Assembly: GCA_964620875.1 (NCBI GenBank)
Contig: CAZUKK010000010.1
Span: forward strand, 125 to 64,124
Source of the DNA: an uncultured Clostridium sp.
GTDB lineage: Bacteria > Cyanobacteriota > Vampirovibrionia > Gastranaerophilales > Gastranaerophilaceae
DNA: 64,000 bases
Direction: 5' to 3'
Shown: piece after piece, positions 408 to 14,552 of the stretch
How the letters are laid out: the number at the start of each line of letters is the position of its first letter
Numbering within the stretch: position 1 is the stretch's first letter
Program-made: the position numbers and the translations under genes
Notes under the pieces: generated by a model
What the model was told of the DNA's origin: nothing
The model's database searches: none
The model's input: only the letters and a program-made list of their open reading frames with translations

Positions 408-480
408 AATCTACTCCTTTATATATTTTATGGTATAGCGAATAAATTTATATTAACACAAACATGTTTTCGTAAATGGG

Positions 481-517
481 TAAAAAATAAAAAAAGTCGG
501 GATTGTCCCGACTTTTT
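481..517 (-). terminator. Rho-independent hairpin terminator (bidirectional); would lie directly 3' of tRNA-Asn in an island-free configuration
   Basis: GTCGGGA-TTG-TCCCGAC stem-loop at 496-512, flanked by an A-run (481-495) and a T-run (513-517). Confidence 0.6.
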
Positions 518-519
518 GC

Positions 520-531
520 AATAAAAAACTC
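520..531. repeat. left copy of the 12-bp direct repeat AATAAAAAACTC (candidate attL core)
   Basis: Identical 12-mer at 11764-11775, overlapping the tRNA-Asn 3' end. This copy sits next to the terminator hairpin. Confidence 0.55.
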
Positions 532-692
532 ACTTTAGTGGACGATTTCAGAACTTTTTTATTAAAAAGTGTTGCATAAAAACATATTAAAATAATGATA
601 TTTATTCTTTTTTGTGTTTCTATATTAACATTCAGATTTACGAAAATAGTTCATGAAATATTACTAATCAATATATTAAAGGATATATAAAA

Positions 693-1340
693 ATGCAAGA
701 CTGGCAAAAATATGAGCAACAAATTTATGAAAAGTTTTCATCCAAATATGATGATTGTAAATTTGAAAAAAATTATCGCATTAAAGGCATCTATAGTAAA
801 TCAGATAGGCAAATTGATGTTGCTATTATAGGTGAAATTGCTGGTTTTACGCAATTGGGTATAATTGAGTGCAAATGTTATAATAGTAAAATTGATGTTA
901 AAACAGTAGATAGCTTTATAGGTTTTATGCAAGATGTAAGTGCTAATTTTGGAGTTATAATAACAACTTTAGGTTTTTCTGAAGGTGCAAAAAATAGAGC
1001 ACAAAATCAAAACATTCACTTAGACATTGTTGAATTAGATAAGCTTGAATACTACGAATTTACCCCAGATACAGATATTTGCCACATGTGTGATGATAAA
1101 TACAGAAATATTGTACATTGGGATAGGCATGATGTTGAAAACGCTTTTGATATTGGACATTGTGCATATTGTAATGAAACTCATATAAGATGTAAAAATT
1201 GCGGAGGAATAACCTCAATATCTGAAACCAATCAAGATGGTATTATAGAATGTTTAGGTGGGTGTGGTTTAAAAATTAAACATTATTACGATGAATGCAA
1301 TGAAGAATATTTTGAAATAATTGAAAAAAGTAATTATTAA
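693..1340 (+). CDS. PD-(D/E)xK (Mrr/restriction-endonuclease-like) nuclease fused to a C-terminal zinc-ribbon cluster
   Basis: SDRQIDVAI...GIIECKCY fits a D...ExK nuclease core. The C-terminal half has Cys/His pairs: CHMCDDK, HCAYCNETHIRCKNCGG and ECLGGCG. Confidence 0.55.
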   Translation: MQDWQKYEQQIYEKFSSKYDDCKFEKNYRIKGIYSKSDRQIDVAIIGEIAGFTQLGIIECKCYNSKIDVKTVDSFIGFMQDVSANFGVIITTLGFSEGAKNRAQNQNIHLDIVELDKLEYYEFTPDTDICHMCDDKYRNIVHWDRHDVENAFDIGHCAYCNETHIRCKNCGGITSISETNQDGIIECLGGCGLKIKHYYDECNEEYFEIIEKSNY

Positions 1341-1341
1341 A

Positions 1342-2064
1342 TTACAATTTAACTAAAATTTTTTGATTAGTAATTTCCTTATCACCAATTTGAGCATTCA
1401 TTTCATAAAATTCTTTTTTGCTTTGTGGGGGATGTGCAATATCTTTTAGTGAACCCAATTTAATAGTTATTGGCTCTATAATATTATTTTGCTTGATAGC
1501 CAATCTCCACTCATTTTGATATGAGAATTTATCAAACTTTTTGAAACAACCCATATCACCATAATGATTAAACTCATCAATATATTCAATAAAACCTAAT
1601 TTAGCACCCCATTGATTTTCTTTCAACTTTTCAGTTAGTCGTATTATAAATTCATTTGAATTATGAATAATAACAACATAATCTTTGCCATCTGCAAAAT
1701 TTCTTTCATCTAATAGTAAGTCATTTTCTAATGCCCATACTGTATCAATGGAAGTCATACTATATAAATGGGAGTATTCAGGACAATTTATATTCATTGC
1801 AACAGATAATGTTCCACCCTCTCTTGTTAAGGTAAATTGTTCATCATCAGTACCTAGTGTTATTGTAATATTTTCCAATCCTTTTCCGGCATAATATTCT
1901 TCAGTTGCTTCAAATCTATCAGCACGACCATCACCATTATCTTCAAGTTTTATAAAATAATCGAAAGTATTTAAATACAATAATCCATCATTGTATAGCA
2001 TTTCCATATGTTCTTTTGTGCCAAATTTTAATAATCCAATATAGTTTTTACTTCCAATTTTCAT
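1342..2064 (-). CDS. hypothetical protein, downstream partner of the NDT-like gene (weak DUF2971-like resemblance only)
   Basis: 240-aa ORF. Its ATG overlaps (TAATG) the stop of the extended upstream reading frame. Motifs LLYLNTFDYF and YQNEWRL are present, but no confident family call can be made by eye. Confidence 0.5.
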   Translation of the reverse strand: MKIGSKNYIGLLKFGTKEHMEMLYNDGLLYLNTFDYFIKLEDNGDGRADRFEATEEYYAGKGLENITITLGTDDEQFTLTREGGTLSVAMNINCPEYSHLYSMTSIDTVWALENDLLLDERNFADGKDYVVIIHNSNEFIIRLTEKLKENQWGAKLGFIEYIDEFNHYGDMGCFKKFDKFSYQNEWRLAIKQNNIIEPITIKLGSLKDIAHPPQSKKEFYEMNAQIGDKEITNQKILVKL

Positions 2065-2157
2065 TATATTATAACTGCCTCAATTCTTTTTCTTAGAGCC
2101 TCTTTAAATTCATCAAGTTTATTATAATCCCACAAAATTATATTTCTATGGTTTAGG

Positions 2158-3204
2158 TCAAAATGCACCTTCTCTAATTATATTGCCTTTATCGTCTTTT
2201 TGAGTATTTAGCCATTCTTGATTACAGGTGTAAATAACAGGTAATCCTAAGCCATACGCAAAACCAGCTTCAAAATACACACCGCCTCTATAGCCAGTTA
2301 AATCTGCTACGACAAACTTACTTTTTCTGATTTCTGCAATCATTTCATCATTAATATCATTACAATGTTCTTTACAGTCTATTCTCATAGCGGTGTATTT
2401 GTCTTTTGATGTCGAAATTGCAGGCTCAATAGCATTTTCATAAGTTTTTTGCATATCATATTTGCATTCTTTTATGTTTTCATCTCTATTAAACCACATA
2501 GCAACAAATGCTTGCTTAGATAGGTTTGATGAATTATGCTTTTCCATATATTCAATGCCTTTACTTGTCACTGCAACATGGTATTGAGGATATGATATGT
2601 ATTCGCAATAGCAATCGTAAAAACTCTTGCCAACATTGAAATTATATTGATAATGTTTCTTATCATACCTACTACTTTGATTAGATGGCAAAACTTTCAA
2701 TTCTACACTAGTACAAAATTTGTTTTCGCATAAAAACATCAATATATTATACAGTTCTGTATTATTTTTACAATAAAATAAAGGAAAAATTGAATTTATA
2801 TCAATTTGAACTGTATCGCCAAAAAATCTTGTATTTTTGATTAAATACTCCAACACTATTTTAGTTTTATCTAAAAGACTTGGAATGTTGTATATATCAT
2901 CAATTTCTTTTAATCTTATTTCAGTTAGATTTTCAAAACCTAATCTTTGATTATTTACCAAATTTTGTAAATATCTTTTCTTGACTACATATCTAACTTT
3001 TAAGCGTTGATTATCGTCAAACTCATCAGGACAATTTGTTAGCAAATCATTAGCTGCTGCATCACAAATGAAACTCCCACAAAAAGGACATTCTACAACA
3101 CCTGCATTTCTTTTAACATTTTCCAAATTAAAACAAAGTGGACACATTTCTAATTGATTATCAACCATTTGCATATTCCTTATTTTGTATTTATCATAAC
3201 CCAA
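2158..3204 (-). CDS. zinc-ribbon + nucleoside 2-deoxyribosyltransferase-like (NDT/TIR-like Rossmann fold) protein; 3' end apparently frameshifted
   Basis: The N-terminus has a CPLC...CPFC zinc ribbon. The C-terminal FVAMWF...VVADLTGYRGGVYFEAGFAYGLGLPVIY resembles the NDT-type signature with an ExG acid. The ORF stops at 2158, but a 31-codon continuation runs to 2064 in the adjacent frame. Confidence 0.6.
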   Translation of the reverse strand: MGYDKYKIRNMQMVDNQLEMCPLCFNLENVKRNAGVVECPFCGSFICDAAANDLLTNCPDEFDDNQRLKVRYVVKKRYLQNLVNNQRLGFENLTEIRLKEIDDIYNIPSLLDKTKIVLEYLIKNTRFFGDTVQIDINSIFPLFYCKNNTELYNILMFLCENKFCTSVELKVLPSNQSSRYDKKHYQYNFNVGKSFYDCYCEYISYPQYHVAVTSKGIEYMEKHNSSNLSKQAFVAMWFNRDENIKECKYDMQKTYENAIEPAISTSKDKYTAMRIDCKEHCNDINDEMIAEIRKSKFVVADLTGYRGGVYFEAGFAYGLGLPVIYTCNQEWLNTQKDDKGNIIREGAF

Positions 3205-3319
3205 ATATTTCTTTCTAAAAATCTAGAAAGTGAAAAATTTTAAGTTTTCTTAAAAAAAATTTTTTGGCTAAAATCCAATAATATCTTAAAATTTAAAAAA
3301 TATTTAAAAATATTTTCCC

Positions 3320-3356
3320 AAAAAGTGAAATGGTTACATAAAACATCCCTTATAAT
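3320..3356 (+). promoter_or_regulatory. candidate promoter/operator of the island replication operon
   Basis: AAAAAGTGAAATGGT (3320-3334), then 16 nt, then TATAAT (3351-3356). The same 15-mer plus a -10 element recurs at 10176-10211. Confidence 0.35.
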
Positions 3357-3412
3357 AGAATTAAGGACGTCCGCACATTGAAACTAAAAATTTAAAGAAA
3401 GAGGTATCAATC

Positions 3413-3604
3413 ATGACTATTCCAAATGAAAGTATGATTAATGAAACTGTTGTGCATTTTAGCAAGTATAGGAAACTACCTATATCATCTAATGAAGCGA
3501 TGAAAACAATTGTTAATTTTAATGGCTTTATACACTTATTACTTCGATTAGATAAAAAGAGAAGTATTATGAATACAGGAAGGGAACTAAAAAATGTCGG
3601 ATAA
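3413..3604 (+). CDS. small hypothetical protein (first gene of the island plus-strand operon)
   Basis: 63-aa ORF with an AGAGG ribosome-binding site upstream. It overlaps the next gene's start by 11 nt. No recognisable motif. Confidence 0.3.
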   Translation: MTIPNESMINETVVHFSKYRKLPISSNEAMKTIVNFNGFIHLLLRLDKKRSIMNTGRELKNVG

Positions 3605-5078
3605 AATAATGGAATTACCTGAAATGCCGGATATTTTCAGAAAAATGGTAATATTACTTATGAAAAGACATAGAAAAGCTAGTATAGGCATGATTTTAAA
3701 TATGGTAATTTGTAAAACTGCTTTTGCACTATGCTCTAAAAGAATAAAATATCGTGAAATTAAAAATACAGGATTTCCAAATTGGTACACTATAATTTTT
3801 GCACCTTCAGGTTGTGGAAAAGATAGAATAAATGATGATTTAGATAAATATTTTTTCAAAAATTTTAGACTTTGGTTTGACCAAAAAGCAATGGATTGGT
3901 ACAATGAACAAGTTAGAAAAATTGAAAGTATAGCTGAAGATTTATTTCAAGATACTAAATCACATAGTGAAGCCAAGAAGAAAGCTTTTATTAAAGATGC
4001 TAAAGAAAAGATAAGACCATTAGTATTTGAAGTTTATAATGGAACAGCAGAAGGTATATTTGAAGAAGCTAAAGTTCGTTCTAAAAGTGATATCGGTGCT
4101 ATTTTAATTACAATTACCGAATTTTCAAAATATTTTCTTAATTCAAAAACCGAAGATAAACAATTCTTCTCGTTTTTACTTATTGCTTACGGTGGAAAAT
4201 TTCCTTCAAAATGTACCAAAGGTGATAAAAGAGAAAATGATGTTATTGGAGTTCCTTTAAATTGTTTGTTAATGTGTGATTATAGCTTATTTGAACACCC
4301 AAAAGCAAAACAAGATTTAATGTTAGAATTACAAACAGGATTTGCTAGAAGGGCGATAATAACTTTTATACCGCATATTGTATTTGAAAATGATTTTGAT
4401 GCAGAAACTTCTTTAAAAAATGACTATATATTTTTTGAACAAGCAAGTTTAATAAATGAGGAATTTATATCTATATTTAGTAGTATTCAAGACCATTTTG
4501 AATATAATATGCCAGATGATGTTTTACTCTTTTTAAAGAAGTATAAATACAAATTAGAACAAGAAGCTAATACTACTGAAAATGAGTTACTAAGAAAAGA
4601 AATTCTTGATAGAGAATTGAAAACGATTAAATTAGCAACCATCTTTGCACCGTTCAATCATTCTGAAAAAATAATTACATTAACAGATGTAAAACAAGCA
4701 ATTTCAGTAATTGAATATTTAAGTAAAGATTTCAGAATGTTTGTAGGATATAAACCTAAACGTATGGATAAGTATGATGAACTATTTAATTTCTTTTTAG
4801 AAAATTTAGACAAGAAATTCAATAGAATGCACATTAGAGAAAAAGCAAAACAGTTTGGATTTACTCTCAAAAATTTTAAAGAAGATTTAAATAATGCTCT
4901 TGTTTTTGTAAAAGAACTTGCCAATGAGTCTGGTTATAACTTATTTGAAGAACCATATAACAATAATACCGGCATGTATTATTGGCTATCTAAAAAAGTA
5001 AATGATGATGAGTTAGGACATTGTTCTTTAAATAAACTCGTAAACAATAATCTAAAAAATCCACAAAATGTAGCATAG
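3594..5078 (+). CDS. P-loop NTPase, putative replication/helicase-like protein of the element (DUF3987-like?)
   Basis: Walker A-like FAPSGCGKDR and Walker B-like LNCLLMCDYS. It sits immediately upstream of a primase gene, as in satellite/prophage replication modules. Confidence 0.45.
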   Translation: MSDKIMELPEMPDIFRKMVILLMKRHRKASIGMILNMVICKTAFALCSKRIKYREIKNTGFPNWYTIIFAPSGCGKDRINDDLDKYFFKNFRLWFDQKAMDWYNEQVRKIESIAEDLFQDTKSHSEAKKKAFIKDAKEKIRPLVFEVYNGTAEGIFEEAKVRSKSDIGAILITITEFSKYFLNSKTEDKQFFSFLLIAYGGKFPSKCTKGDKRENDVIGVPLNCLLMCDYSLFEHPKAKQDLMLELQTGFARRAIITFIPHIVFENDFDAETSLKNDYIFFEQASLINEEFISIFSSIQDHFEYNMPDDVLLFLKKYKYKLEQEANTTENELLRKEILDRELKTIKLATIFAPFNHSEKIITLTDVKQAISVIEYLSKDFRMFVGYKPKRMDKYDELFNFFLENLDKKFNRMHIREKAKQFGFTLKNFKEDLNNALVFVKELANESGYNLFEEPYNNNTGMYYWLSKKVNDDELGHCSLNKLVNNNLKNPQNVA

Positions 5079-5176
5079 TTATTGGATTGTAAGATTTTTT
5101 CAAAATATAAAATCTGAAAATCCATAACAAGTAAAGATTATATGGATTTTTCAGATTTATAAAAGGCAGTGTAAAA

Positions 5177-6064
5177 ATGAGTAAATTAACTTTAGAAAAC
5201 GTAATTACATATTTGGGGCAACCACACAAAAAATGCAATCATGAACTTATTTGGCAATGCCCTATTTGTAAAGATAGAGGTAAAGATAATTTAAAATACA
5301 ACATAGATAAAAATGTTTTATATTGTTTTGCAAATTCAGACCACTCAAAAACAATTTTAAAAGAAATAAATATAAATAACGGTAGATTTTATATAAAAGA
5401 CGAAACCAGTCTAATAAATAAGCCTGTAGAACCTGCAAATTTAACTTTAGAACAAACTTTAAAATATGAAGATTATATGTACCAATGTAATGAAATTTTG
5501 CTTCGTGATAAAAACTTGCTGAAATTTCTATATGATAAAAGAGGAATAACTCCTAATACTGTTTCGATGACTAAATTAGGCTATGATAAGAGAAAACAAA
5601 TATGGACTATTCCAACAATTAAATATAGTTGTAATTCAAACCACGTTATAGGATTTGAATTTAGACCTCATAATTTATCTAAAATCGGTTTATATCGTAC
5701 AAAAGGCTCTCCAAGTTGTTTAGCTATGATAAACGATTATTATACTGGTATTGATACACTATGCGTTATAGAAGGATATTTTGATGGTTATGCACTATTA
5801 CAATATCTTTCAGAATGCAAAGAAGATAAATATTATCATATAGTTACGCCTTCAAATGGCGTTCAATCATTAATGAAATTCATGCCGGATATTAATTACA
5901 ACAAATACAAAAAGTATTATCTTTTTATTGATAATGATGAAGTTTCAAACAAAATTAAATCACAAATTGTTGAAAAATATCCACAATTTGAGACAATAAA
6001 TATGATTTGTGATTGCAAGGATTTCAATGAACATTATCTAAAATGTATAAAAGGGAGGAAGTAA
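5177..6064 (+). CDS. DNA primase-like protein (zinc finger + TOPRIM)
   Basis: Zinc finger WQCPICKDRGKDNL...LYCFANSDH. TOPRIM-like CVIEGYFDGYAL (Glu) and LFIDNDEVSNK (DxD). Confidence 0.65.
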   Translation: MSKLTLENVITYLGQPHKKCNHELIWQCPICKDRGKDNLKYNIDKNVLYCFANSDHSKTILKEININNGRFYIKDETSLINKPVEPANLTLEQTLKYEDYMYQCNEILLRDKNLLKFLYDKRGITPNTVSMTKLGYDKRKQIWTIPTIKYSCNSNHVIGFEFRPHNLSKIGLYRTKGSPSCLAMINDYYTGIDTLCVIEGYFDGYALLQYLSECKEDKYYHIVTPSNGVQSLMKFMPDINYNKYKKYYLFIDNDEVSNKIKSQIVEKYPQFETINMICDCKDFNEHYLKCIKGRK

Positions 6065-6465
6065 TGCCAAAAGCAGATGGATACAAAAATTTAATTCCAG
6101 CTAATAAGCGAAGCAAGGAAGAAGCTAGGATGTTAGGACAAAAAGGCGGTATAAAATCTGGAGAAGCTCGCAGAATGCGTAAAACACTAAAGGAACATTT
6201 ATTACTATTACTTGAAGAAAATGATTTGCAAGAAAACCTTTGTTTAGCACTTATAGATAAAGCTTTAGAAGGCGACACAAAAGCATTTCAAATAATAAGA
6301 GATACTATTGGAGAAAAGCCGATTGATAAAGTTTGCATGACTACTGCTAATGTAAACTTGCAACAATCCTACAATGAAGTTAAAGCATTAATTGAGGCTC
6401 AAAAACAAAAACTTATTGAAGAAAACCGACGCGAGGTACTTCAAATCGAAGAACGGGAATATTAA
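6064..6465 (+). CDS. small basic protein, possibly terminase small-subunit-like/DNA-binding
   Basis: The start is moved to the ATG at 6064, which has a GGGAGGAAG ribosome-binding site and a TAATG overlap with the primase stop. The N-terminus KNLIPANKRSKEEARMLGQKGGIKSGEARR resembles small phage packaging/DNA-binding proteins, from memory only. Confidence 0.3.
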   Translation: MPKADGYKNLIPANKRSKEEARMLGQKGGIKSGEARRMRKTLKEHLLLLLEENDLQENLCLALIDKALEGDTKAFQIIRDTIGEKPIDKVCMTTANVNLQQSYNEVKALIEAQKQKLIEENRREVLQIEEREY

Positions 6466-6550
6466 CCCTCCCCCTACCCCTCAAAAAGTAGTAAAAATAA
6501 GCCTATAAACATGGATAGTACCCCTAGAAAAATTTTTCAAATTTCAAGGG

Positions 6551-7360
6551 TTATTCATATTTGCTTAATGTTTCAAGCATATCATAACCCAATTCGGTTA
6601 ATACGATACAAATGTCCCCACTATCATGAAACACCTTGATAAGATTTAATTGTTTTAACAAATCCAAACTTGTCTCATCGCATATATTATTATCAAAAAT
6701 ATATAATCTGTTATAAATATTTACATTTTCAGGATAAGGTACATTAATATGTATTTCAGGAATTGAATTTGACCTTATCATCTCATATTGTCCATCATAC
6801 TCTACAACATCACCAACTTCTAAATTTCCTGAAATTTCATCAGCAGTATCAGCAATTAAACATTTATTATTATAATTCTCTAATTCATCAGATATATCAT
6901 TAACTAAATATTTTTTACCTTTCTGAAAATCAAAAACAGCTTTTAGAAGTCTCGCTTCTTGTCCACCAATTTTAGATAAAATTTCTGCATATTGAATTTT
7001 TATTGGTGTATATTTAGAAGAAGTATCCAGTAACAATTTTGCCCATAAAGCAAACATAATTTCTTCATGTTCTACTGACAATTTTTCAAATAATGGTATT
7101 GCAGCTTTTGGTGGAATTGGATTTACTTCAATATTATATTTGTTTTTCAACTCTTGAGCCTTTTGAGCAATCAGTAATGTTGTTTCGGCTCTATATCTTT
7201 CAACTTGTGCATTTCTAACAGATGGAAAAAATAATGCTACTAAATTTTCTAAACCACTAAAAACTTTTTCAAAACTTACTAATGTATTATTTGAAAAATT
7301 ATCACTTGCGATATTATTATCAGAAAGCATACTATTTGAAACATTATTGTTGTCTATCAA
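6551..7360 (-). CDS. Abi-alpha / DUF4393-like protein, downstream partner of the reverse transcriptase
   Basis: IPPKAAIPLFEKLSVEHEEIMFALWAKLLLDTSSKYTPIKIQYAEILSKIGGQEARLLKAVF matches my recollection of the DUF4393/Abi_alpha core (..P..l.P.le.as.e.de.l...WA.LL......hp.f.eIL.ql...Ea.iL). It lies 24 nt after the RT stop. Confidence 0.5.
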   Translation of the reverse strand: MIDNNNVSNSMLSDNNIASDNFSNNTLVSFEKVFSGLENLVALFFPSVRNAQVERYRAETTLLIAQKAQELKNKYNIEVNPIPPKAAIPLFEKLSVEHEEIMFALWAKLLLDTSSKYTPIKIQYAEILSKIGGQEARLLKAVFDFQKGKKYLVNDISDELENYNNKCLIADTADEISGNLEVGDVVEYDGQYEMIRSNSIPEIHINVPYPENVNIYNRLYIFDNNICDETSLDLLKQLNLIKVFHDSGDICIVLTELGYDMLETLSKYE

Positions 7361-7384
7361 ATTATTCTCCTTAAATTTTCAAAT

Positions 7385-8908
7385 CTAATCGTCATAATAG
7401 AATATATCTATTTCATCATCTCTAATTTCCGCATCAAGATTACTTAATTCCTGATAATTAATAATTGGAGTGGTGTTTACTATATTTTTTAATCCATTGC
7501 TAACCCAATCTATGTTCCATACTGGAGGTAATGTTTTATCCATAACTAGATTACAAATACTTGAATTATAATTCTGGAAGAAGTCATCCTTATATATTAT
7601 TCTTTGTAACCATATTTCCATATATTCCGTATTTGGTTTTTCTTCAAGTTTTGTTTTTATTTTTTGTACAATATCAAATCTTTTATCAAAATCTGAAATA
7701 TATGATAATGATTTTCCTATTATTGCTGCTATTGTTGGGTAAACTCTAGGATTAGAGCAAGCAATAGTAAAAGCAATACTAATAACAGGAACTATATTTT
7801 TATCATCTTTTTTGAATTTTAAGTTCTTATTATATTCAGATAATAAAGCTTGTAAGCTCCCAGAATTAGGAAATTTTTTAGAAAAATCATAAATTCGTAT
7901 AATTTGTTTTTGCAAATTTCCTTTATTAGGACAGAATTTATTTAAATCCTCCAAGTGCGATATTCTATATAATTTATCTTTTTTTAATGAACCCTCAATA
8001 ATATCTTCTGTTTTTTGTGTTTTTGTCGCATTAAGTTTAAAACCTAATTCAATCATAACTTCTGTTAAAAATTTAACTATTTGACTTCCTGTTTGCGAAT
8101 TATTAACAAAAATACGATAATCATCTCTATATCTAATAATTTTATAATTGTCAACTTTTGCATCATCTAATTTTTTAGACAATAATAAATCAGCGTAGCC
8201 TAAAACAATTTCAGCTATAAAATCCATTAAAACTGAACCCTGAGGTATGCCATTCGTTTGATTATATGTCATACAACGAATTAAATCGTCAATGTCATTT
8301 CCCTCTAATTTAATTGTTTTATCTTTGATTGATTTTTTTGCATTATCTTTTCCATGCAACGCCCATGCGATAGTATGAGTGTAAATTGAACCATAGCAAT
8401 CAGTTATATCTGTTGAAAATAAATATGAATACTCCAATGCTTGTTCTATTGATAATTGCTCAACTTCATTCCACCAATTCGCGACTTGACTAGCTTGTTG
8501 CCTTTGTTTAGGTGATTGTAATACAGGGATGGCTTGACTCAAAATATTTTTATTATTTTGAAATTCTTTAAATCTTTTTTTTATTAAATCCCAAACGCTA
8601 TTCTGAGTTATATAATTTACTAAAGCTACATATATTATAGGATTTAATAGTTGGAAAGGTCGCCAAGCATAACACCCATCTTTATTATTATAAATAACAT
8701 AATTTACATCATCATAACTTGATGGAGGGATTTTATTGTTTACATAAAAAGTTTTTAATTCTTTGTTCTGCAACTTTTTATCTAATTTATCTAATAATTT
8801 CTGGAAGCTAAAATAAGTAGGCAATAAAATATTAGAATAATTTTCTTCTTTTAGAAAATAATTTTTTGCTTTACTTGCCGATAGACTTAAAACATTTTTT
8901 GCAGCCAA
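7385..8908 (-). CDS. reverse transcriptase, Abi/UG (defence-associated) type
   Basis: RT motifs FSTDITDCYGSIYTH (A), NGIPQGSVLMDFIAEIVL (B), IIRYRDDYRIFV (C, YxDD class) and LGFKLNATKTQ (D/E). There is a long helical C-terminal region and no maturase/endonuclease or Cas context. Start is TTG with AGGA upstream. Confidence 0.8.
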   Translation of the reverse strand: MAAKNVLSLSASKAKNYFLKEENYSNILLPTYFSFQKLLDKLDKKLQNKELKTFYVNNKIPPSSYDDVNYVIYNNKDGCYAWRPFQLLNPIIYVALVNYITQNSVWDLIKKRFKEFQNNKNILSQAIPVLQSPKQRQQASQVANWWNEVEQLSIEQALEYSYLFSTDITDCYGSIYTHTIAWALHGKDNAKKSIKDKTIKLEGNDIDDLIRCMTYNQTNGIPQGSVLMDFIAEIVLGYADLLLSKKLDDAKVDNYKIIRYRDDYRIFVNNSQTGSQIVKFLTEVMIELGFKLNATKTQKTEDIIEGSLKKDKLYRISHLEDLNKFCPNKGNLQKQIIRIYDFSKKFPNSGSLQALLSEYNKNLKFKKDDKNIVPVISIAFTIACSNPRVYPTIAAIIGKSLSYISDFDKRFDIVQKIKTKLEEKPNTEYMEIWLQRIIYKDDFFQNYNSSICNLVMDKTLPPVWNIDWVSNGLKNIVNTTPIINYQELSNLDAEIRDDEIDIFYYDD

Positions 8909-8957
8909 ATTTCATTCCTATATTGATTAAATTGATGTTGTAATAATAGCACAAAAA

Positions 8958-9290
8958 TCAGGACTTTAGATATTTTAAAGCTTCAACAACTTTATATAAA
9001 TACATCAATTCACTATCTGATGCATTGTTTATTGAGTTGTTGAGCAATTTTATCAATTCCTCTCTGCTTTTAATATGTCCAAAACTAAATAATTCTTTTT
9101 CTTCAACTTCCAAAGCATTAGCTAATTTTTCTAATGTTTCAGCTGTCATAAATCTTTTACCGCATTCAATATTACTTAAATTTGGTTTATCCATATCAAT
9201 TTTTTCAGCAAGCACTTCTTGAGTTAAATTCTTACTCTTTCTTATTTCTTGTATTCTTGCACCTAATTTTTGTTTCAACGATTTCATCAT
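8958..9290 (-). CDS. XRE-family helix-turn-helix transcriptional regulator
   Basis: LGARIQEIRKSKNLTQEVLAEKIDMDKPNLSNIECGKR is a classic HTH_3 (cI/Cro-like) motif. It is on the same strand as the RT and 49 nt upstream of it. Confidence 0.85.
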   Translation of the reverse strand: MMKSLKQKLGARIQEIRKSKNLTQEVLAEKIDMDKPNLSNIECGKRFMTAETLEKLANALEVEEKELFSFGHIKSREELIKLLNNSINNASDSELMYLYKVVEALKYLKS

Positions 9291-9460
9291 AAACCCTCCT
9301 ACACATGATATATGTAGGATTTGTAAAAAAGAACTTGCTTATTTGCTATCAAACGTATAATTTAGTAGCTGTTTATGCTATTATAATTTTGTAAAAATAA
9401 CATTTTATACTATTTTTATCATTAAAAGTTAGTAAAATGGCATTCAAAAAAGGAGTAAAA

Positions 9461-9682
9461 ATGAAAACGATTTTAAAAATTATTCCAATACTCTTAATCT
9501 GTGGCATAGCATTTGTAGCATTTATGTGCGTAAAAGCAGAAAGAAATTATGATACTAGACAAAAGCAGATTTTATATGGCGAAAAACGAGGCAAAGACAT
9601 GCAATATTGCAATACAAGAGCAAGTATTGGTATAGAAGATTATACAAGCTGCATGCATAGAATGAGTGAAAATTATAGATAA
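9461..9682 (+). CDS. small membrane protein
   Basis: The start is moved to the ATG at 9461, which has an AGGAG 5 nt upstream. The N-terminal TM segment is ILKIIPILLICGIAFVAFMCV. Confidence 0.45.
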   Translation: MKTILKIIPILLICGIAFVAFMCVKAERNYDTRQKQILYGEKRGKDMQYCNTRASIGIEDYTSCMHRMSENYR

Positions 9683-9700
9683 ATTTATAGAGGGTAAATT

Positions 9701-10174
9701 ATGAAAAAGATTATTATTACAATGTTTTTGTTATCACTAACAGTTAGTGCCTGTTATGCAGATAGCTTAGATAATGCATTAAATGCCCAATCAAGAGCTT
9801 TAAATGCCGGAACAATATATAGTGGAGTTAATACTGCCGCCGGAGTTGCCAATACTGTATCTAATGTTCAAACCAATACAAGCATAAGACGTAGAATTGA
9901 TGCTGAAACTGCATTAATAAAAAAACAAGCAGCATTAGAAGGAATTGATTTAAGAGATGCCAAAGATATACAAAACGAACACATGGCACTTTATTTTAAA
10001 TCTCGTTATTTTTTAATAAGAACTAAAAAACAAGCAAAATATGAAAAAGATGAAGAAATGCTTAAATTAATTAAAAAATATTGGAAACCATGGACAACCG
10101 AAGATGCTATTTATGCTGCTGAAAAAGTTATTGAATTACAAGAAAAACGTAAAAAAGAATCTTCAAAATTATAA
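9701..10174 (+). CDS. lipoprotein (island moron, function unknown)
   Basis: Signal peptide with lipobox LTVSAC (Cys18). The remainder is helical and Lys/Glu-rich. Confidence 0.55.
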   Translation: MKKIIITMFLLSLTVSACYADSLDNALNAQSRALNAGTIYSGVNTAAGVANTVSNVQTNTSIRRRIDAETALIKKQAALEGIDLRDAKDIQNEHMALYFKSRYFLIRTKKQAKYEKDEEMLKLIKKYWKPWTTEDAIYAAEKVIELQEKRKKESSKL

Positions 10175-10175
10175 T

Positions 10176-10211
10176 AAAAAGTGAAATGGTGGCTGAAAAA
10201 TATGCTATAAT
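10176..10211 (+). promoter_or_regulatory. candidate promoter/operator of the recombinase gene
   Basis: AAAAAGTGAAATGGT (10176-10190), then 15 nt, then TATAAT (10206-10211). This is a duplicate of the motif at 3320-3356. Confidence 0.35.
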
Positions 10212-10311
10212 AGATACATAAACTTAAGTTTAGACCAAATTATAGTATTAGATTAAATTACATGCTTTCATATATTAGAAAGTCCTTATTTGGAAAGGCT
10301 TAGGTGTTATT

Positions 10312-11811
10312 ATGACCAAAACTAATGTGTTAAAAGTTGTATTGTATGCTAGAGTATCAAGTAAAGAACAGGAAAGAGAAGGTTATTCTATTCCTGCTCA
10401 ACTTGAACTATTAAGGAATTATGCCGACAAAAACAATATGATGATAGTCAAAGAATTTGAAGATGTTGAAACCGCAAAATGTACTGGGAGAACTAATTTT
10501 AATGAAATGCTCAAATTTATTAAATCTTCAAAAGATTGTAAAACTATTTTAGTAGAAAAAACAGATAGATTATATCGAAATCTACCGGATTATGTAACAG
10601 TTGATAATTTAAATCTTAATATTCATTTTGTAAAAGAGGGGTGTATTTTATCTGAAAATTCTCACTCTAGCGAAAAATTTATACATGGAATAAAAGTCTT
10701 ACAAGCCAGACAGTATATTCAGAATTTAGGCGAAGAAGTTAAAAAGGGACTTACTCAAAAGGCTAAAGAGGGATATGTAACAGGAAAACCTCCTTATGGA
10801 TACAAAAAAATTGATAAAAAGCAAAGTGTTATTGATGAAGAAAAATCTTCTTTTGTTCTTAGAGCGTTTGAACTATATTCTAAAGGTAATTTATCATTAT
10901 CAAAACTTGCATGCCAGTTATATAAAGAAGGCTATATCTTTAAAGATAATTGTCCTAAAGCATATAAATCTCAATTAGAAAATATTTTAAAAAATCCATT
11001 TTACTATGGGATGATTGTATTTAAAGGTACGTTATATGAAGGTAAACATGAAGCGTTGATTACAAAAGAATTGTTTGACCTTACTCAATTGGCATTTCGC
11101 AAAGACAATAAACCTAAACATATAGTTGCAAAAGAATTTTTATTTTCCGGCATGGTAAAATGTGCGAATTGTGGCTGTAATTTATCTGGCGAAATTAAAA
11201 AAGGTAAATATATTTATTATTCTTGTACTGGAGGCAAAGGTGAATGCCCCCAACAACATATTTACATACCTGAAATAAAACTTGAAGATAAAATACTAGA
11301 AGCTTTAGGGCAAATATATATTACAGATGAACATAAAACTTGGATTTTAAAAGCTTTGAAAGAAAGTTTTAAAGATGAACAAAAATATATGCTAGAACAA
11401 TTAAATAGTTTAAATGCTAAGAAACAAAAATTAAGAGCAAGAATAGATGGTTTATATCTTGATAAAATTGATGGTAAAATTTCAGAAGAATTTTGGCAAG
11501 AGAGACATAATAATTGGACACAATCATTAATAACTATTCAGAATAATATAAATGCTTATGAAATGGCAAATATAGACTTTATTAGCAAAGGTTCAAGATT
11601 TTTAAAAATCTGCAGAGAAATTAAAGAACTATACTTATATGGAAATAACAAAGAAAGAAAAGAATTAATCAATTATGTACTTCAGAACTTTTCTATGGAT
11701 GGCGAAAACCTAAGCTATGAGTACAAAAAACCCTTTGACATATTCGTCAAAGGATTAAATCGTAATAAAAAACTCCCCAGGCTGGACTCGAACCAGCAAC
11801 CCTTCGATTAA
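10312..11811 (+). CDS. large serine recombinase (integrase of the element)
   Basis: N-terminal resolvase domain VVLYARVSSKEQEREGYSIPAQ with the catalytic Ser. A recombinase domain (GKPPYGYK) follows, then the zinc ribbon CANCGC...YYSCTGGKGECPQQH and a coiled-coil tail. The last 12 codons read into tRNA-Asn. Confidence 0.9.
   Translation: MTKTNVLKVVLYARVSSKEQEREGYSIPAQLELLRNYADKNNMMIVKEFEDVETAKCTGRTNFNEMLKFIKSSKDCKTILVEKTDRLYRNLPDYVTVDNLNLNIHFVKEGCILSENSHSSEKFIHGIKVLQARQYIQNLGEEVKKGLTQKAKEGYVTGKPPYGYKKIDKKQSVIDEEKSSFVLRAFELYSKGNLSLSKLACQLYKEGYIFKDNCPKAYKSQLENILKNPFYYGMIVFKGTLYEGKHEALITKELFDLTQLAFRKDNKPKHIVAKEFLFSGMVKCANCGCNLSGEIKKGKYIYYSCTGGKGECPQQHIYIPEIKLEDKILEALGQIYITDEHKTWILKALKESFKDEQKYMLEQLNSLNAKKQKLRARIDGLYLDKIDGKISEEFWQERHNNWTQSLITIQNNINAYEMANIDFISKGSRFLKICREIKELYLYGNNKERKELINYVLQNFSMDGENLSYEYKKPFDIFVKGLNRNKKLPRLDSNQQPFD
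11764..11775. repeat. right copy of the 12-bp direct repeat AATAAAAAACTC (candidate attR core)
   Basis: Identical to 520-531. It overlaps the discriminator and 3' end of tRNA-Asn and the codons NKKL of the recombinase. Confidence 0.55.
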
Positions 11812-11844
11812 CAGTCGAATGCTCCGCCATTGAGCTACTGAGGA
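11773..11844 (-). tRNA. tRNA-Asn (anticodon GTT)
   Basis: The reverse complement folds as a cloverleaf. The acceptor is TCCTCAG/CTGGGGA, the anticodon stem is TTCGA/TCGAA with loop CTGTTAA, and the T-arm is GCTGG-TTCGAGT-CCAGC. No CCA is encoded. Confidence 0.9.
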
Positions 11845-11978
11845 TTATGCCTTTAGTTTATAACAAAAAAAAATTATTGTAAAGTACTTTTTTAAAATTT
11901 TTCATTCAGGCAATTGAGATTTCTCGTTTATATGCTATTATATCATTGTTTTAGTTGATATTTTGAAAGGAGTTTTAT

Positions 11979-12722
11979 ATGTCTAATCCTGCTTTAAATG
12001 AAAAAATATTAAAATCAGCTTTTGATTTAAACCTTGGAAATAATTCCATGACAATAAACGGCACAATCCTAAAAACATGTTTTTTAGGTTTGCTTATGGC
12101 AATTACTTTTGCCTATAATTGGAGTTTAATACTTTCAGGATTCGCTGATAAAGCTATTCTACTATCAAAATTCGGATTGGTTGGGGGAATTATACTCATT
12201 CTTTTTATCTGCTTTGCACCTAAAAACAAATCACTAATCTTAACAACTCCGCTTTATGCAATGTGCGAAGGTTTAGTTCTGGGATTTATCTCAGCCATTG
12301 CTAATACTGCCTACCCGGGAGTGGCATCCCAAGCCGCAATTGGAACATTTTTTGCACTGTTTGGAATGTTTATTCTATACAAAACTAACCTCGTTAGAGC
12401 AACTCAAAAATTCAAAATGATTGTTTTTAATTCAACTTTTGCTATTTTTGGAATTTATTTACTACAATTTATATTGCAATTCTTCCATATCCAAATTCCG
12501 GCAATATTTTCAAATAGCCCGATTGGAATTGGATTTAGCGCAGTCGTTGTTGCAATTGCAACATTCAACTTAATTATTGATTTTGATAATATTGAGAGAT
12601 TTTCAGGACAAGCCGATAAAAATTATGAATGGTACTTCGGATTTTCTCTTATGGTTACAATAATCTGGATGTACATAGAAATCCTTAATCTTTTAATGAA
12701 ATTACAAAGTCGAAATAATTAA
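11979..12722 (+). CDS. Bax-inhibitor-1/YccA family membrane protein
   Basis: 247 aa with about 7 TM segments. The N-terminus MSNPALNEKILK, overall layout and charged C-terminus are typical of BI-1/YccA proteins. Confidence 0.7.
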   Translation: MSNPALNEKILKSAFDLNLGNNSMTINGTILKTCFLGLLMAITFAYNWSLILSGFADKAILLSKFGLVGGIILILFICFAPKNKSLILTTPLYAMCEGLVLGFISAIANTAYPGVASQAAIGTFFALFGMFILYKTNLVRATQKFKMIVFNSTFAIFGIYLLQFILQFFHIQIPAIFSNSPIGIGFSAVVVAIATFNLIIDFDNIERFSGQADKNYEWYFGFSLMVTIIWMYIEILNLLMKLQSRNN

Positions 12723-12743
12723 ATTTTCAATACATATTGAAAA

Positions 12744-12771
12744 GACCTGCAAATTTTGCAGGTCTTTTTTT
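12744..12771 (+). terminator. Rho-independent terminator
   Basis: Palindrome GACCTGCAAA/TTTGCAGGTC followed by T7. Confidence 0.75.
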
Positions 12772-12884
12772 ATATTTATCCAAATTTCTAATACAAATAT
12801 ATGAGATTTTAGCTCATGTATTAAAGTTGAGAGATTTACCCACGACATGACATGTAAATCTATATATTTTATTGGAGCTTCAAA

Positions 12885-14552
12885 ATGTCAGAACAAGTTT
12901 TAATGCCAATGATAGGCACAGACAATATTGAAAATAAGGAAAAGGCAAGAACATCACTTGAAAAAGCAAGACTTGCTCACGAAAAATACCTTCTTGGGCA
13001 ACGCAACATTGACCTTGAAGAAGCAGTAGAACACTATGTCGATGCTGTAAAATATGATCCTACAATACCTGAAACATACTACAGGCTGGCATCATTGATG
13101 TGGGAGCAGGGACAAATCAGCATTGATACAGCTATTGAACAATGTAAAACTGCAGTAAGCTTATCCCCGAACAATAAAGATGCTCGTCTTTATACCGGAT
13201 ATTTTATGCAACTCGCACAAGATTACAATTCTGCAGAAAAAGAATTCAAATCCGCAATATCTATGAATCCGTTTACATCTGGCAGACCTAGAATGATTCT
13301 ATCTCAATCTCTGCTTCAAAAAATCAATTCTCAAAACGGAACATACAAAGACTACATTGGATTTTTATATTATTTCTTAACAGGAAGTATCATGCTTGCA
13401 TGGGACAGACCTACAATGAAAATGTTTTATAAAAACATGAAAAATGATGTTTCAATATTCTCGTACAACACTGTTGGGAAATTCTATGAAAAATTCAAAA
13501 TGTACGATTCTGCTCGTGATTTGTATACACAAGCAATTAACCAAACAACTCACAGCGAATATTTCTACAACAAAATCGGAGACTTAGCTCTTAGGAATAA
13601 AGATATTGAAACAACAGCAAACTGCTACAGAAAAGTCCTTGAAGCTAACCCTTATAATCGTGAAATTTTAGTTAAACTTGCTACTATTTTACAAACATAT
13701 TTCCCTGATAACTCAGAAGAAGCAATTGACTGTTATGAAAAGCTTCTTGAATTTAATATTGATACTGCTCAAATTTATTATGAACTCGGACATCTTTATA
13801 TGGCAAAAGAAGATAAATTAAATTCAATAAGTGCATTTAAACTTGCAGTTGATAAAGACCCTGAAAATCCGTTCTTCAACAATTCTTTGGGCTACGCATT
13901 TGCCAAAGCAGAATTATACGATGATGCAATTGAGCATTATCAAAAAGCAATTTCATTAAATCCGGATTCTGAATGGACTTCAATTGTATGTCAGGCTTTA
14001 GGTTCAATTTATGCTGAACACAAAGGTAATATTGAAGCGGCAGTATCAACATATCAAGCCGGAATAATACTTGACCCTAAAAATTACGATTTATATATCG
14101 CACTTGGTGATATTTATATGGCTGATTACGATTTAGATAAAGCTATCAGAGCATACTGCGATGCAATAACCCTTAATCCTGAAGAATATCAAGCATACTC
14201 GAAAGTCGGAATTGCTCTATGGGAAAAAGATTATCTTGAAGAAGCTTTAGTAGCATACCATAAAGCAGTAGAACTCAAACCGGAAAATGAATATGCACAA
14301 AACAATTTAGGCATTTTGTATCTAGATGGTTTGATGAATGCAGAAGAAGCTCTCGAATATTTTGAAGAAGCTATTGCACTAAATCCAAACTATACTCTTG
14401 CATACTTTAATGCAGGACGTGCAAGTCAGGAAATGGGCTTTACAAACGATGCCGCAAACTATTACCAAATGGCAATCGACTTAAACAGATTAACAGATGA
14501 ACTTGATGAAGAAGATATTCAAGCAAGACTTCACAGTTTATTTGAAATATAA
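12885..14552 (+). CDS. tetratricopeptide (TPR) repeat protein
   Basis: Many 34-aa units of the type A..Y.kAl.l.P....a...lg..y along the whole 555 aa. Confidence 0.8.
   Translation: MSEQVLMPMIGTDNIENKEKARTSLEKARLAHEKYLLGQRNIDLEEAVEHYVDAVKYDPTIPETYYRLASLMWEQGQISIDTAIEQCKTAVSLSPNNKDARLYTGYFMQLAQDYNSAEKEFKSAISMNPFTSGRPRMILSQSLLQKINSQNGTYKDYIGFLYYFLTGSIMLAWDRPTMKMFYKNMKNDVSIFSYNTVGKFYEKFKMYDSARDLYTQAINQTTHSEYFYNKIGDLALRNKDIETTANCYRKVLEANPYNREILVKLATILQTYFPDNSEEAIDCYEKLLEFNIDTAQIYYELGHLYMAKEDKLNSISAFKLAVDKDPENPFFNNSLGYAFAKAELYDDAIEHYQKAISLNPDSEWTSIVCQALGSIYAEHKGNIEAAVSTYQAGIILDPKNYDLYIALGDIYMADYDLDKAIRAYCDAITLNPEEYQAYSKVGIALWEKDYLEEALVAYHKAVELKPENEYAQNNLGILYLDGLMNAEEALEYFEEAIALNPNYTLAYFNAGRASQEMGFTNDAANYYQMAIDLNRLTDELDEEDIQARLHSLFEI

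What the first reader, a model, noticed from the sequence alone, without database searches (positions are those of the whole stretch)
6551..9290. XRE - reverse transcriptase - Abi-alpha(DUF4393)-like operon carried by the island: candidate uncharacterised RT-based anti-phage module
Three co-directional genes are separated by only 49 and 24 nt. The first is an XRE helix-turn-helix protein (8958-9290). The second is a 507-aa reverse transcriptase (7385-8908) with motifs TDITD, IPQGS and YRDD. It has a ~170-aa N-terminal extension and a ~190-aa helical C-terminus. The third is a 269-aa protein (6551-7360) whose core looks like the Abi_alpha/DUF4393 signature. The RT has no maturase or endonuclease domain, no intron RNA, no msr/msd-type inverted repeats and no cas neighbours. 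By exclusion this places it with the Abi/UG defence-associated RTs. I do not recognise an RT paired with an Abi-alpha-like protein as one of the named DRT or Abi types. The operon sits in a mobile island beside other defence-like genes, which is the usual context for new immunity systems.
Basis: partly seen in the sequence, partly recalled or inferred. Interest (0 to 1): 0.8.

Follow-up and report, generated by a model that had tools for sequence, protein, structure and literature searches.

The report
AbiP2 reverse transcriptase plus Abi-alpha cassette
The three genes are real, but the reverse transcriptase and its neighbour each belong to an already named single-gene anti-phage family (AbiP2 and Abi-alpha), and they travel together only in a narrow group of gut Melainabacteria, so this is most likely two stacked known defences rather than a new RT-based immune system.

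Summary
In detail: XRE (8958-9290), a 507-aa RT (7385-8908) and a 269-aa Abi_alpha protein (6551-7360) lie on the minus strand with gaps of 49 and 24 nt.

- The RT is a full-length AbiP2-class enzyme: PADLOC AbiP2 E=2e-186; PDB 7r08 Abi-P2 E=5e-89. The catalytic Asp residues and the priming Tyr (Tyr32) are conserved.
- The partner passes Pfam Abi_alpha, a validated stand-alone Abi family.
- RT+Abi_alpha recurs as a co-inherited cassette in three different contexts, all in Gastranaerophilales-type genomes. The RT and partner trees agree and their dS values match.
- The link is loose. Only 1 of 80 species-level AbiP2 loci has it. RTs 72-82% identical are instead followed by Mrr, AbiU/AIPR or PDC-S01, or sit alone or beside an R-M system. 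A partner 73-74% identical sits without any RT. One lineage keeps the RT intact with a frameshifted partner.
- Homology breakpoints fall at the gene boundaries, and XRE is outside the cassette.

Most likely these are two autonomous Abi genes stacked and co-transcribed on a tRNA-Asn island. A true two-gene AbiP2 variant is not excluded (about 0.25).

The parts
7385..8908 (-). AbiP2-class reverse transcriptase-like polymerase (507 aa): fingers/palm plus C-terminal helical domain
   Evidence: PADLOC AbiP2 E=2.4e-186, 618 bits, profile 3-486/489; next best RT_UG14 at 184 bits. PDB 7r08 Abi-P2 E=5e-89, residues 4-504 against 33-541. P2-EC30/P2-EC58 RTs 34-36% identity over 99% of the length. dN/dS 0.07-0.125.
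8813..8815 (-). Codon of Tyr32, the predicted DNA-priming tyrosine (equivalent to Abi-P2 Tyr61)
   Evidence: The alignment places query Y32 opposite chain Y61. A Y61F change abolishes polymerisation in Abi-P2 (PMC9508834). Y32 is invariant in the 17-sequence alignment A1. Codon checked.
8408..8410 (-). Codon of catalytic Asp167 (TDITD motif)
   Evidence: Invariant in A1; codon checked.
8120..8131 (-). YRDD catalytic motif (residues 260-263)
   Evidence: Y260, R261, D262 and D263 are invariant in A1; codons checked.
6551..7360 (-). Abi_alpha (DUF4393) family protein, 269 aa: disordered N-terminus (1-32), conserved helical core (~37-179), variable C-terminal beta-hairpin/helix region ending in a conserved LTxxGY motif
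   Evidence: Pfam PF14337 E=4.7e-10, 40.2 bits against GA 29. All 87 homologues carry PF14337. Alignments A2/A5. AF2 model pLDDT 80.9. No PDB fold match at E<=1e-3. dN/dS 0.08-0.185.
6551..8957 (-). The co-inherited RT + Abi_alpha cassette (RT leader, RT, 24-nt spacer with the partner's SD, partner)
   Evidence: blastn homology to context-B loci L143-145 spans exactly window 8957..6551, L137 spans 8936..6551 and context C (L016/L100) spans 8920..6552. dS of the RT and the partner match pair by pair. The trees are congruent.
8958..9290 (-). XRE-family HTH protein (110 aa). Probably the island's repressor or control protein. It lies upstream of the cassette only in this island type.
   Evidence: HTH_19 E=1.1e-13. 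PADLOC control protein E=8.9e-14; RstR-like E=1.8e-12, below cutoff. Present in L018/L098/L099 but absent upstream of the RT in contexts B and C.
9297..9319 (-). Palindrome TCCTACA-N9-TGTAGGA overlapping the XRE Shine-Dalgarno sequence; candidate operator or SD-sequestering hairpin
   Evidence: Read directly from the sequence; not tested further.
10312..11811 (+). Large serine recombinase of the island
   Evidence: Resolvase, Recombinase and Zn_ribbon_recom domains.
11773..11844 (-). tRNA-Asn(GTT) at the island edge, overlapped by the recombinase ORF end; likely the integration site
   Evidence: ARAGORN; Rfam tRNA 66 bits.
2396..11848 (.). Island block shared at ~79% nucleotide identity with Melainabacteria/Gastranaerophilales loci L018, L098 and L099. 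It includes the DUF3987 (3594-5078) and Toprim (5177-6064) replication genes.
   Evidence: blastn; Pfam.

Best explanation
The locus carries two autonomous, already named abortive-infection genes stacked in one transcription unit on a small integrative island at tRNA-Asn. The first is an AbiP2-class polymerase and the second is an Abi_alpha (DUF4393) protein.

Inferred mechanism:
- The island's XRE repressor gene is transcribed from its own promoter. Transcription probably reads through into the RT and Abi_alpha genes, in the way a prophage repressor is co-expressed with defence 'morons'.
- The RT acts like Abi-P2. As a trimer or hexamer it uses the hydroxyl of Tyr32 to prime template-independent synthesis of single-stranded DNA that stays covalently attached. 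This activity aborts infection by certain phages. The trigger and the lethal step are unknown even for the prototype.
- The Abi_alpha protein provides a second, independent layer, like E. faecalis Abi-alpha, which causes premature lysis of infected cells. Its conserved helical N-terminal core is probably the effector or scaffold, and its variable C-terminal region probably sets specificity.
- The two genes have been inherited together for a long time in Gastranaerophilales, but each can be lost, replaced or moved without the other.

Shown here: family membership, catalytic and priming residues, co-inheritance, separability, and the island context. Inferred: co-transcription, the biochemical activity, the anti-phage phenotype, and independence of function.
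For: RT is AbiP2: PADLOC E=2.4e-186 over the full length; 7r08 E=5e-89; P2-EC30/EC58 34-36% identity over 99% of the length; D167, YRDD and Tyr32 invariant.

AbiP2 is described as a stand-alone multi-domain defence protein (PMC9226505). Abi-alpha is a validated single-gene Abi (PMC6356687) and is reported as 'AbiAlpha' in defence-system surveys.

Separability:
- Only 1 of 80 species-level AbiP2 loci has an Abi_alpha neighbour.
- RTs 72-82% identical are followed by Mrr, AIPR/AbiU or PDC-S01, or sit alone or beside R-M genes.
- A partner homologue 73-74% identical (L136) has no RT and follows a Type I R-M plus RhuM.
- L137-139 keep an intact RT beside a partner with a 1-nt deletion, in three assemblies.
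- blastn breakpoints fall at the gene boundaries: RT-only loci match 8909..7385, and partner-only L136 matches 7425..6551.
- RT-only lineages nest among the pair-carrying ones.

Tight spacing is uninformative for this family. 27 of 72 distant AbiP2 RTs have a same-strand gene within 30 nt upstream, and 16 of those are HsdS; the tight downstream genes include HsdR, GmrSD and SLFN/AlbA_2. More distant Abi_alpha homologues are similarly embedded in Type III mod-res operons.
Against: The pair is more than a one-off adjacency. It recurs with 3-24 nt spacing in three otherwise unrelated contexts: island A, the serine recombinase/DUF2924 element B, and chromosomal context C. The RT and partner trees are congruent and their dS values are near identical. 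A conserved pair in variable contexts is the usual signature of a functional gene pair.

The dN/dS values for the 'solo' genes average over history that mostly predates the separation, so they do not prove that either gene works alone.
Confidence: 0.6

Rival explanations
1. This is a genuine two-gene AbiP2 variant. In this Gastranaerophilales clade the Abi_alpha-like protein would be a dedicated partner of the RT. It could act as the effector or sensor that responds to the RT's protein-linked ssDNA (its C-terminal winged-helix-like element could bind nucleic acid), or as a modulator that keeps the polymerase silent until infection.
For: The cassette is conserved in three different contexts with 3-24 nt spacing. 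The RT and partner phylogenies are congruent and their dS values match: 0.68/0.69, 1.06/1.00 and 1.94/1.90. Both genes are under purifying selection. The partner has its own strong SD 7 nt upstream of its start, right after the RT stop. Abi_alpha proteins are recurrently embedded inside other multi-gene defence operons such as Type III R-M, which hints at an accessory role. The lethal step of AbiP2 is unknown (PMC9508834).
Against: Close RT relatives lack the partner, and a close partner relative lacks the RT. A lineage with a frameshifted partner keeps an intact RT. 79 of 80 species-level AbiP2 loci have no Abi_alpha. Both prototypes work as single genes. The partner's C-terminal type is also found in RT-less loci L135 and L136.
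Confidence: 0.25
2. This is an addiction or regulatory module of the island rather than phage defence. XRE would control a toxic RT and/or Abi_alpha pair that stabilises the integrative element or takes part in its life cycle.
For: XRE is similar to the RstR/CI-type repressors, R-M control proteins and HipB/HigA-type antitoxins. A palindrome overlaps its SD. The cassette sits on mobile elements in contexts A and B. Mestre et al. raise addiction roles for some MGE-borne UG RTs.
Against: XRE is not part of the conserved cassette. The RT family occurs widely in chromosomal R-M and defence islands. Both families have experimentally shown anti-phage members.
Confidence: 0.08

Closest known systems
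Abi-P2 (RT of P2-like prophages P2-EC30/P2-EC58; structure PDB 7r08)
   Same: Full-length homology covers the fingers/palm and the C-terminal helical domain. The catalytic Asp residues and the priming tyrosine (Tyr61 in Abi-P2, Tyr32 here) are conserved. It is carried on a mobile element in a variable defence region.
   Different: Identity to the E. coli prototypes is only 34-36%. The host is a Gastranaerophilales/Melainabacteria-type genome rather than Enterobacteria. The carrier is a serine-recombinase island at tRNA-Asn rather than a P2 prophage. In this clade the RT is followed by a co-inherited Abi_alpha gene, which is not described for AbiP2.
Abi-alpha (EF2833, E. faecalis V583 prophage 6; Pfam PF14337/DUF4393)
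   Same: It passes the Pfam family threshold, has a similar size (269 against 272 aa), is MGE-borne, and lies downstream of a repressor-type gene.
   Different: It is a distant member (40 bits). It was not compared directly with EF2833. It comes from a different phylum. Here it is co-transcribed behind an RT. Its phenotype is unknown.
AbiK / AbiA (Lactococcus) and DRT4-type single-gene UG/Abi class 1 RTs
   Same: They share the same enzyme class: protein-primed, template-independent polymerases with helical C-terminal domains (one search gives AbiK E=2e-30 and Drt4 E=3e-40; PMC9508834).
   Different: The similarity is much weaker than to AbiP2, and the C-terminal domains and oligomeric details differ.
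Prophage repressor-linked Abi operons such as lambda cI-rexA-rexB (from general knowledge, not tested here)
   Same: The layout is the same: an HTH repressor gene followed in the same orientation by abortive-infection genes on an integrated element.
   Different: There is no homology to RexAB. Co-transcription here is inferred only from the 49-nt and 24-nt gaps and the absence of a predicted terminator.

Membership tests
AbiP2 (UG/Abi class 1 RT) | Best and full-length match to the AbiP2 profile, clearly above other UG/DRT/Abi classes | tested here: met
   PADLOC PDLC03744 AbiP2 E=2.4e-186, 618 bits, residues 2-506 against profile 3-486/489; next best RT_UG14 at 184 bits.
AbiP2 (UG/Abi class 1 RT) | Homology to the experimentally characterised Abi-P2 over both the RT-like domain and the C-terminal helical domain (no thumb, maturase or endonuclease domain) | tested here: met
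   7r08 E=5e-89, query 4-504 against chain 33-541. P2-EC30/EC58 34-36% identity over 99% of the length. No other Pfam domain found.
AbiP2 (UG/Abi class 1 RT) | Intact polymerase active site (Asp of motif A; YxDD motif C) | tested here: met
   D167 and Y260-R261-D262-D263 are present and invariant in A1.
AbiP2 (UG/Abi class 1 RT) | Priming tyrosine on the alpha2-alpha3 loop (Abi-P2 Tyr61) | tested here: met
   Tyr32 aligns with chain Tyr61, is invariant in A1, and its role in Abi-P2 comes from PMC9508834.
AbiP2 (UG/Abi class 1 RT) | Template-independent protein-primed DNA synthesis; trimer/hexamer assembly | not testable with these tools
   Needs biochemistry or structure determination.
AbiP2 (UG/Abi class 1 RT) | Acts as a stand-alone gene conferring abortive infection | not testable with these tools
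   Comparative data only. RT-only loci exist at 62-82% identity, and the RT stays intact beside a frameshifted partner.
Abi_alpha (PF14337 / DUF4393) | Pfam PF14337 match above the gathering score | tested here: met
   40.2 bits against GA 29, E=4.7e-10, residues 64-244. All 87 homologues are annotated PF14337.
Abi_alpha (PF14337 / DUF4393) | Direct similarity to the validated prototype EF2833 (272 aa) | not tested
Only size (269 aa) and family profile agree.
Abi_alpha (PF14337 / DUF4393) | Single-gene abortive-infection phenotype (premature lysis) | not testable with these tools
   Needs a phage challenge.
Multi-gene UG/Abi or DRT system (RT with a dedicated partner) | Partner gene conserved next to the RT across the RT clade and absent elsewhere | tested here: not met
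   1 of 80 AbiP2 loci has it. Within the >=72% identity clade the pair is in 3 lineages, against at least 5 RT-only lineages. Partner relatives at <=49% and one at 73-74% identity lack an RT.
Retron / group II intron / DGR / CRISPR-associated RT | Family-specific RT profile above cutoff plus the associated ncRNA, intron RNA, template repeats or cas genes | tested here: not met
   NCBIfam group II 48.7 bits against 300, and retron 31 bits against 235. Rfam finds only tRNA in 6000-12000. The intergenic spaces are 49 and 24 nt.

The most novel reading that the evidence does not exclude
In a Gastranaerophilales clade, an Abi_alpha-family protein has become a working partner of an AbiP2 polymerase. 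It could be the missing effector or sensor that converts protein-primed ssDNA synthesis into cell death. More broadly, Abi_alpha/DUF4393 proteins may be plug-in accessory modules for diverse defence systems (AbiP2 here, Type III R-M elsewhere) rather than stand-alone Abi genes.
Probability: 0.25. Interest if true: 0.6.

Novelty: new member of a known kind. Interest (0 to 1): 0.3.

Why it matters
As it stands, the locus extends two known single-gene abortive-infection families (AbiP2 and Abi-alpha) into gut Melainabacteria. It also gives a clean example of defence genes being shuffled at exact gene boundaries between mobile elements.

It would matter more if the pairing proved functional. How AbiP2/AbiK-type random ssDNA synthesis actually stops phages is unresolved, and the mechanism of Abi_alpha is unknown. 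The natural series found here (pair, RT-only, partner-only, frameshifted partner) is a ready-made design for testing synergy against independence.

Tried and rejected
- RT:partner complex prediction. The two ORFs are in the same frame, so I tried a read-through chain (window:6551-8908:-) with an unpaired block alignment.
- Fold search of the partner model against the PDB. No hit at E<=1e-3. There were only 35-45-residue winged-helix-like local matches, too weak to assign a function.
- Viral-contig scans. The RT gave no relatives and the partner alignment gave one distant locus. The annotated phage collection holds only three weak partial Abi_alpha hits, in Vibrio satellite-like elements.
- Direct-repeat search for att sites in 1-13000. 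Only AT-rich chance-level repeats were found, as expected for a serine recombinase. The island's left end was therefore defined only by homology to L018.
- Promoter and terminator scan of 6300-9800. Promoter-like hits were at the shuffled expectation (24 against 26) and there were no terminators. This is uninformative except that nothing separates the three genes.
- Considered and rejected: retron, group II intron, DGR and CRISPR RT, and XRE as an integral part of the cassette.
Full report
**1. Observation**

The three co-directional minus-strand ORFs exist exactly as described: XRE 8958-9290 (110 aa), RT 7385-8908 (507 aa) and partner 6551-7360 (269 aa). The gaps are 49 and 24 nt. TDITD, IPQGS and YRDD lie at residues 166, 221 and 260. 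Each start has a Shine-Dalgarno-like sequence. Pfam gives HTH_19/HTH_3 for the first protein, RVT_1 (residues 108-300) for the second, and Abi_alpha PF14337 above the gathering score (40.2 against 29 bits) for the third. No terminator-like site lies between the genes, and no Rfam family other than tRNA-Asn is found in 6000-12000.

**2. What the RT is**

In fact it is an unambiguous AbiP2-class enzyme.
- PADLOC's AbiP2 model matches end to end at E=2.4e-186 (618 bits); the next class, RT_UG14, scores 184 bits.
- The crystal-structure sequence of Abi-P2 (7r08) aligns over residues 4-504 at E=5e-89.
- The original P2-EC30/P2-EC58 RTs match at 34-36% identity over 99% of the length.
- Figiel et al. 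(PMC9508834) showed that Abi-P2 is a trimer (potentially a hexamer) that synthesises DNA without a template, primed by Tyr61.
- In the alignment Tyr61 corresponds to Tyr32 here. Tyr32 is invariant across a 17-sequence alignment spanning 44-90% identity, as are D167 and Y260-D263.
- Mestre et al. (PMC9226505) list AbiP2 among the stand-alone multi-domain UG/Abi proteins with experimentally shown defence.

**3. What the partner is**

All 87 detectable homologues carry PF14337. The family prototype, Abi-alpha of E. faecalis prophage 6 (272 aa), is a validated single-gene Abi that causes premature lysis (PMC6356687). 'AbiAlpha' is a routine category in defence-system surveys.

Alignments show a conserved N-terminal core of ~145 residues and a C-terminal ~120 residues that differ between subgroups, ending in a conserved LTxxGY motif. 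An AF2 model (pLDDT 80.9) has a disordered N-terminus, a helical core and a C-terminal beta-hairpin/helix region. It has no significant PDB fold match, only weak winged-helix-like local hits. DUF4393 genes are reported as strongly enriched targets of programmed inversions (PMC9881135). That fits a variable specificity region, but I did not test this.

**4. Does the synteny recur? The RT side**

A scan of one genome per species returned more than 570 AbiP2-like loci. The best 80 (42-90% identity, many phyla) were analysed with an HMM of the partner family. Only L018, the 90%-identical RT in the same island type, has an Abi_alpha neighbour.

Close relatives in other Gastranaerophilales MAGs have other neighbours:

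| Locus | RT identity to window | What follows or flanks the RT |
|---|---|---|
| L021 | 81% | Mrr type IV REase |
| L024 | 81-82% | AIPR/AbiU |
| L022 | 80% | PDC-S01 (AAA_14-DUF4143) |
| L023 | 72% | an 81-aa ORF |
| L141 | 72-73% | opposite-strand PDDEXK_4-like gene; the RT directly follows a DpnII R-M |
| L142 | 75% | nothing on the same strand |
| L011 | 62% | a 74-aa ORF; the RT directly follows a DpnII R-M |

**5. Does the synteny recur? The partner side**

A metagenome scan (37 loci) and contig look-ups gave these results.
- An RT is adjacent only for partner homologues at >=70% identity (L098, L099, L100).
- Homologues at 40-60% identity sit between a Type III methyltransferase and a Type III restriction subunit, or in other islands.
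- A full-length homologue 73-74% identical (P0129, L136) follows a Type I R-M plus RhuM with no RT.
- A 48% homologue lies in a phage-like contig with no RT.

**6. The pair is nevertheless a real cassette**

It occurs in three otherwise unrelated contexts:
- (A) this island (window, L018, L098, L099);
- (B) an element with a 526-aa serine recombinase and DUF2924 (L143-146 have an intact partner; L137-139 have a partner with a 1-nt deletion, seen in three assemblies);
- (C) a chromosomal site (L016/L017/L100).

The spacing is always 3-24 nt. The RT and partner trees both give ((A,B),C). Synonymous divergences match gene for gene: window-L018 0.68/0.69, window-L143 1.06/1.00, window-L016 1.94/1.90. 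So the two genes have been co-inherited through ~28-30% protein divergence. Both are under purifying selection (dN/dS 0.07-0.19).

**7. The link is still separable**

- RT-only lineages (L021/22/24, L142, L023) nest between pair-carrying lineages in the RT tree.
- The RT-less partner L136 groups with the context-C partner.
- blastn blocks against the window end at gene boundaries. Context B matches 8957..6551, starting right after the XRE stop. Context C matches 8920..6552. RT-only loci match ~8909..7385.
- L142 keeps the spacer up to the partner's start codon (8920..7357). Partner-only L136 keeps the last ~40 nt of the RT plus the spacer (7425..6551).
- So XRE is not part of the cassette, and the RT and the partner each behave as an exchangeable module.

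**8. Tight spacing is not diagnostic here**

Of 72 more distant AbiP2 loci, 27 have a same-strand gene within 30 nt upstream, often overlapping by 4 nt. 16 of those are HsdS. The tight downstream neighbours include HsdR (3 loci), GmrSD, Schlafen/AlbA_2 and AAA_15. AbiP2 genes are thus habitually wedged into other systems' operons, as Abi_alpha genes are into Type III R-M operons.

**9. Context**

The cassette lies on an island shared with Melainabacteria/Gastranaerophilales MAGs (window 2396-11848). The island has:
- a large serine recombinase whose ORF end overlaps tRNA-Asn;
- DUF3987 and Toprim replication genes;
- further to the left, Mrr-like and TIR-effector-like genes.

XRE resembles RstR/CI-type repressors and R-M control proteins. 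A 7+7 palindrome overlaps its SD.

**10. Verdict**

The most likely reading (0.6) is two autonomous, known-type Abi genes stacked in a co-inherited, probably co-transcribed cassette expressed behind an island repressor. A true two-gene AbiP2 variant with Abi_alpha as a dedicated partner is not excluded (about 0.25), because a conserved pair in variable contexts with matching divergence is the classical signature of functional linkage. It is weakened by solo occurrences of both genes at close distance and by an intact RT beside a broken partner. An addiction or regulatory role for the island is a minor alternative (about 0.08).

I found no publication describing the pairing. Novelty is modest: new members of known kinds in an under-sampled phylum. 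Interest 0.3.

Noticed in passing
L002-L010, L103-L106 (e.g. L002: 4501-5997, 6001-6900, 6875-9475): Homologues of the Abi_alpha partner at 40-60% identity are wedged between a Type III methyltransferase (PADLOC MTase_III E=2.6e-151) and a Type III restriction subunit (REase_III E=2.1e-178), with a 3-nt gap on one side and overlapping ends on the other. One such protein cluster is indexed in 294 blocks of the collection. This suggests that Abi_alpha-like proteins are recurrent inserts or accessory genes of Type III R-M operons.
   Followed up: partly
L025-L097 (e.g. L026, L040, L044, L045, L047, L052, L058, L089): Distant AbiP2-class RTs are often embedded in Type I R-M operons. 27 of 72 loci have a same-strand gene within 30 nt upstream, often overlapping by 4 nt. 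16 of these are HsdS, and HsdR follows directly downstream in three loci. GmrSD, Schlafen/AlbA_2 and AAA_15 genes also abut the RT.
   Followed up: partly
window 9297-9319 (- strand): Palindrome TCCTACA-N9-TGTAGGA overlaps the Shine-Dalgarno sequence of the XRE gene. It could be an autoregulatory operator or an SD-sequestering hairpin.
   Followed up: no
window 10312-11844: The 3' end of the large serine recombinase ORF (10312-11811, +) overlaps tRNA-Asn(GTT) (11773-11844, -). The island seems to be integrated at this tRNA. No att direct repeat was found within 1-13000.
   Followed up: partly
window 693-3204: Other defence-like cargo lies left of the replication genes: a 215-aa Mrr_cat nuclease-like protein (693-1340, +), and a 348-aa protein (2158-3204, -) whose C-terminus hits a PADLOC TIR effector model (E=1.7e-9) and Pfam Nuc_deoxyrib_tr (just below threshold). 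Between them is an unannotated 240-aa ORF (1342-2064, -). The island block shared with L018 starts only at 2396, so the leftmost genes may be variable cargo or lie outside the island.
   Followed up: partly
L137-L139 (L137: 5735-6543): The Abi_alpha gene carries a 1-nt deletion (AAATATAATATT to AAATAT-ATATT) that splits it into 78-aa and 180-aa ORFs, next to an intact 506-aa RT. It is seen in three assemblies. It is either a pseudogene or a phase-variable state.
   Followed up: partly
window 6047-6547 and L100 4060-4565: The 140-aa ORF convergent with the partner (window 6043-6465, +; no family hit) also has a 73%-identical copy in context C, about 1.2 kb from the cassette. It may be a further loosely linked gene of unknown function.
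   Followed up: no
window 11979-12722 and L011 927-1658: The BaxI-family membrane protein next to tRNA-Asn has a 40%-identical homologue that flanks the R-M + RT defence cluster of L011 (RT 62% identical). This hints that the neighbourhood is a recurrent defence-island hotspot in these genomes.
   Followed up: no
partner family alignment A2/A5 (window residues ~150-269): The Abi_alpha family has a conserved N-terminal core but at least three unrelated C-terminal region types. The literature reports DUF4393 genes as strongly enriched targets of programmed inversions (PMC9881135). The variable C-terminus may be a swappable specificity module.
   Followed up: no
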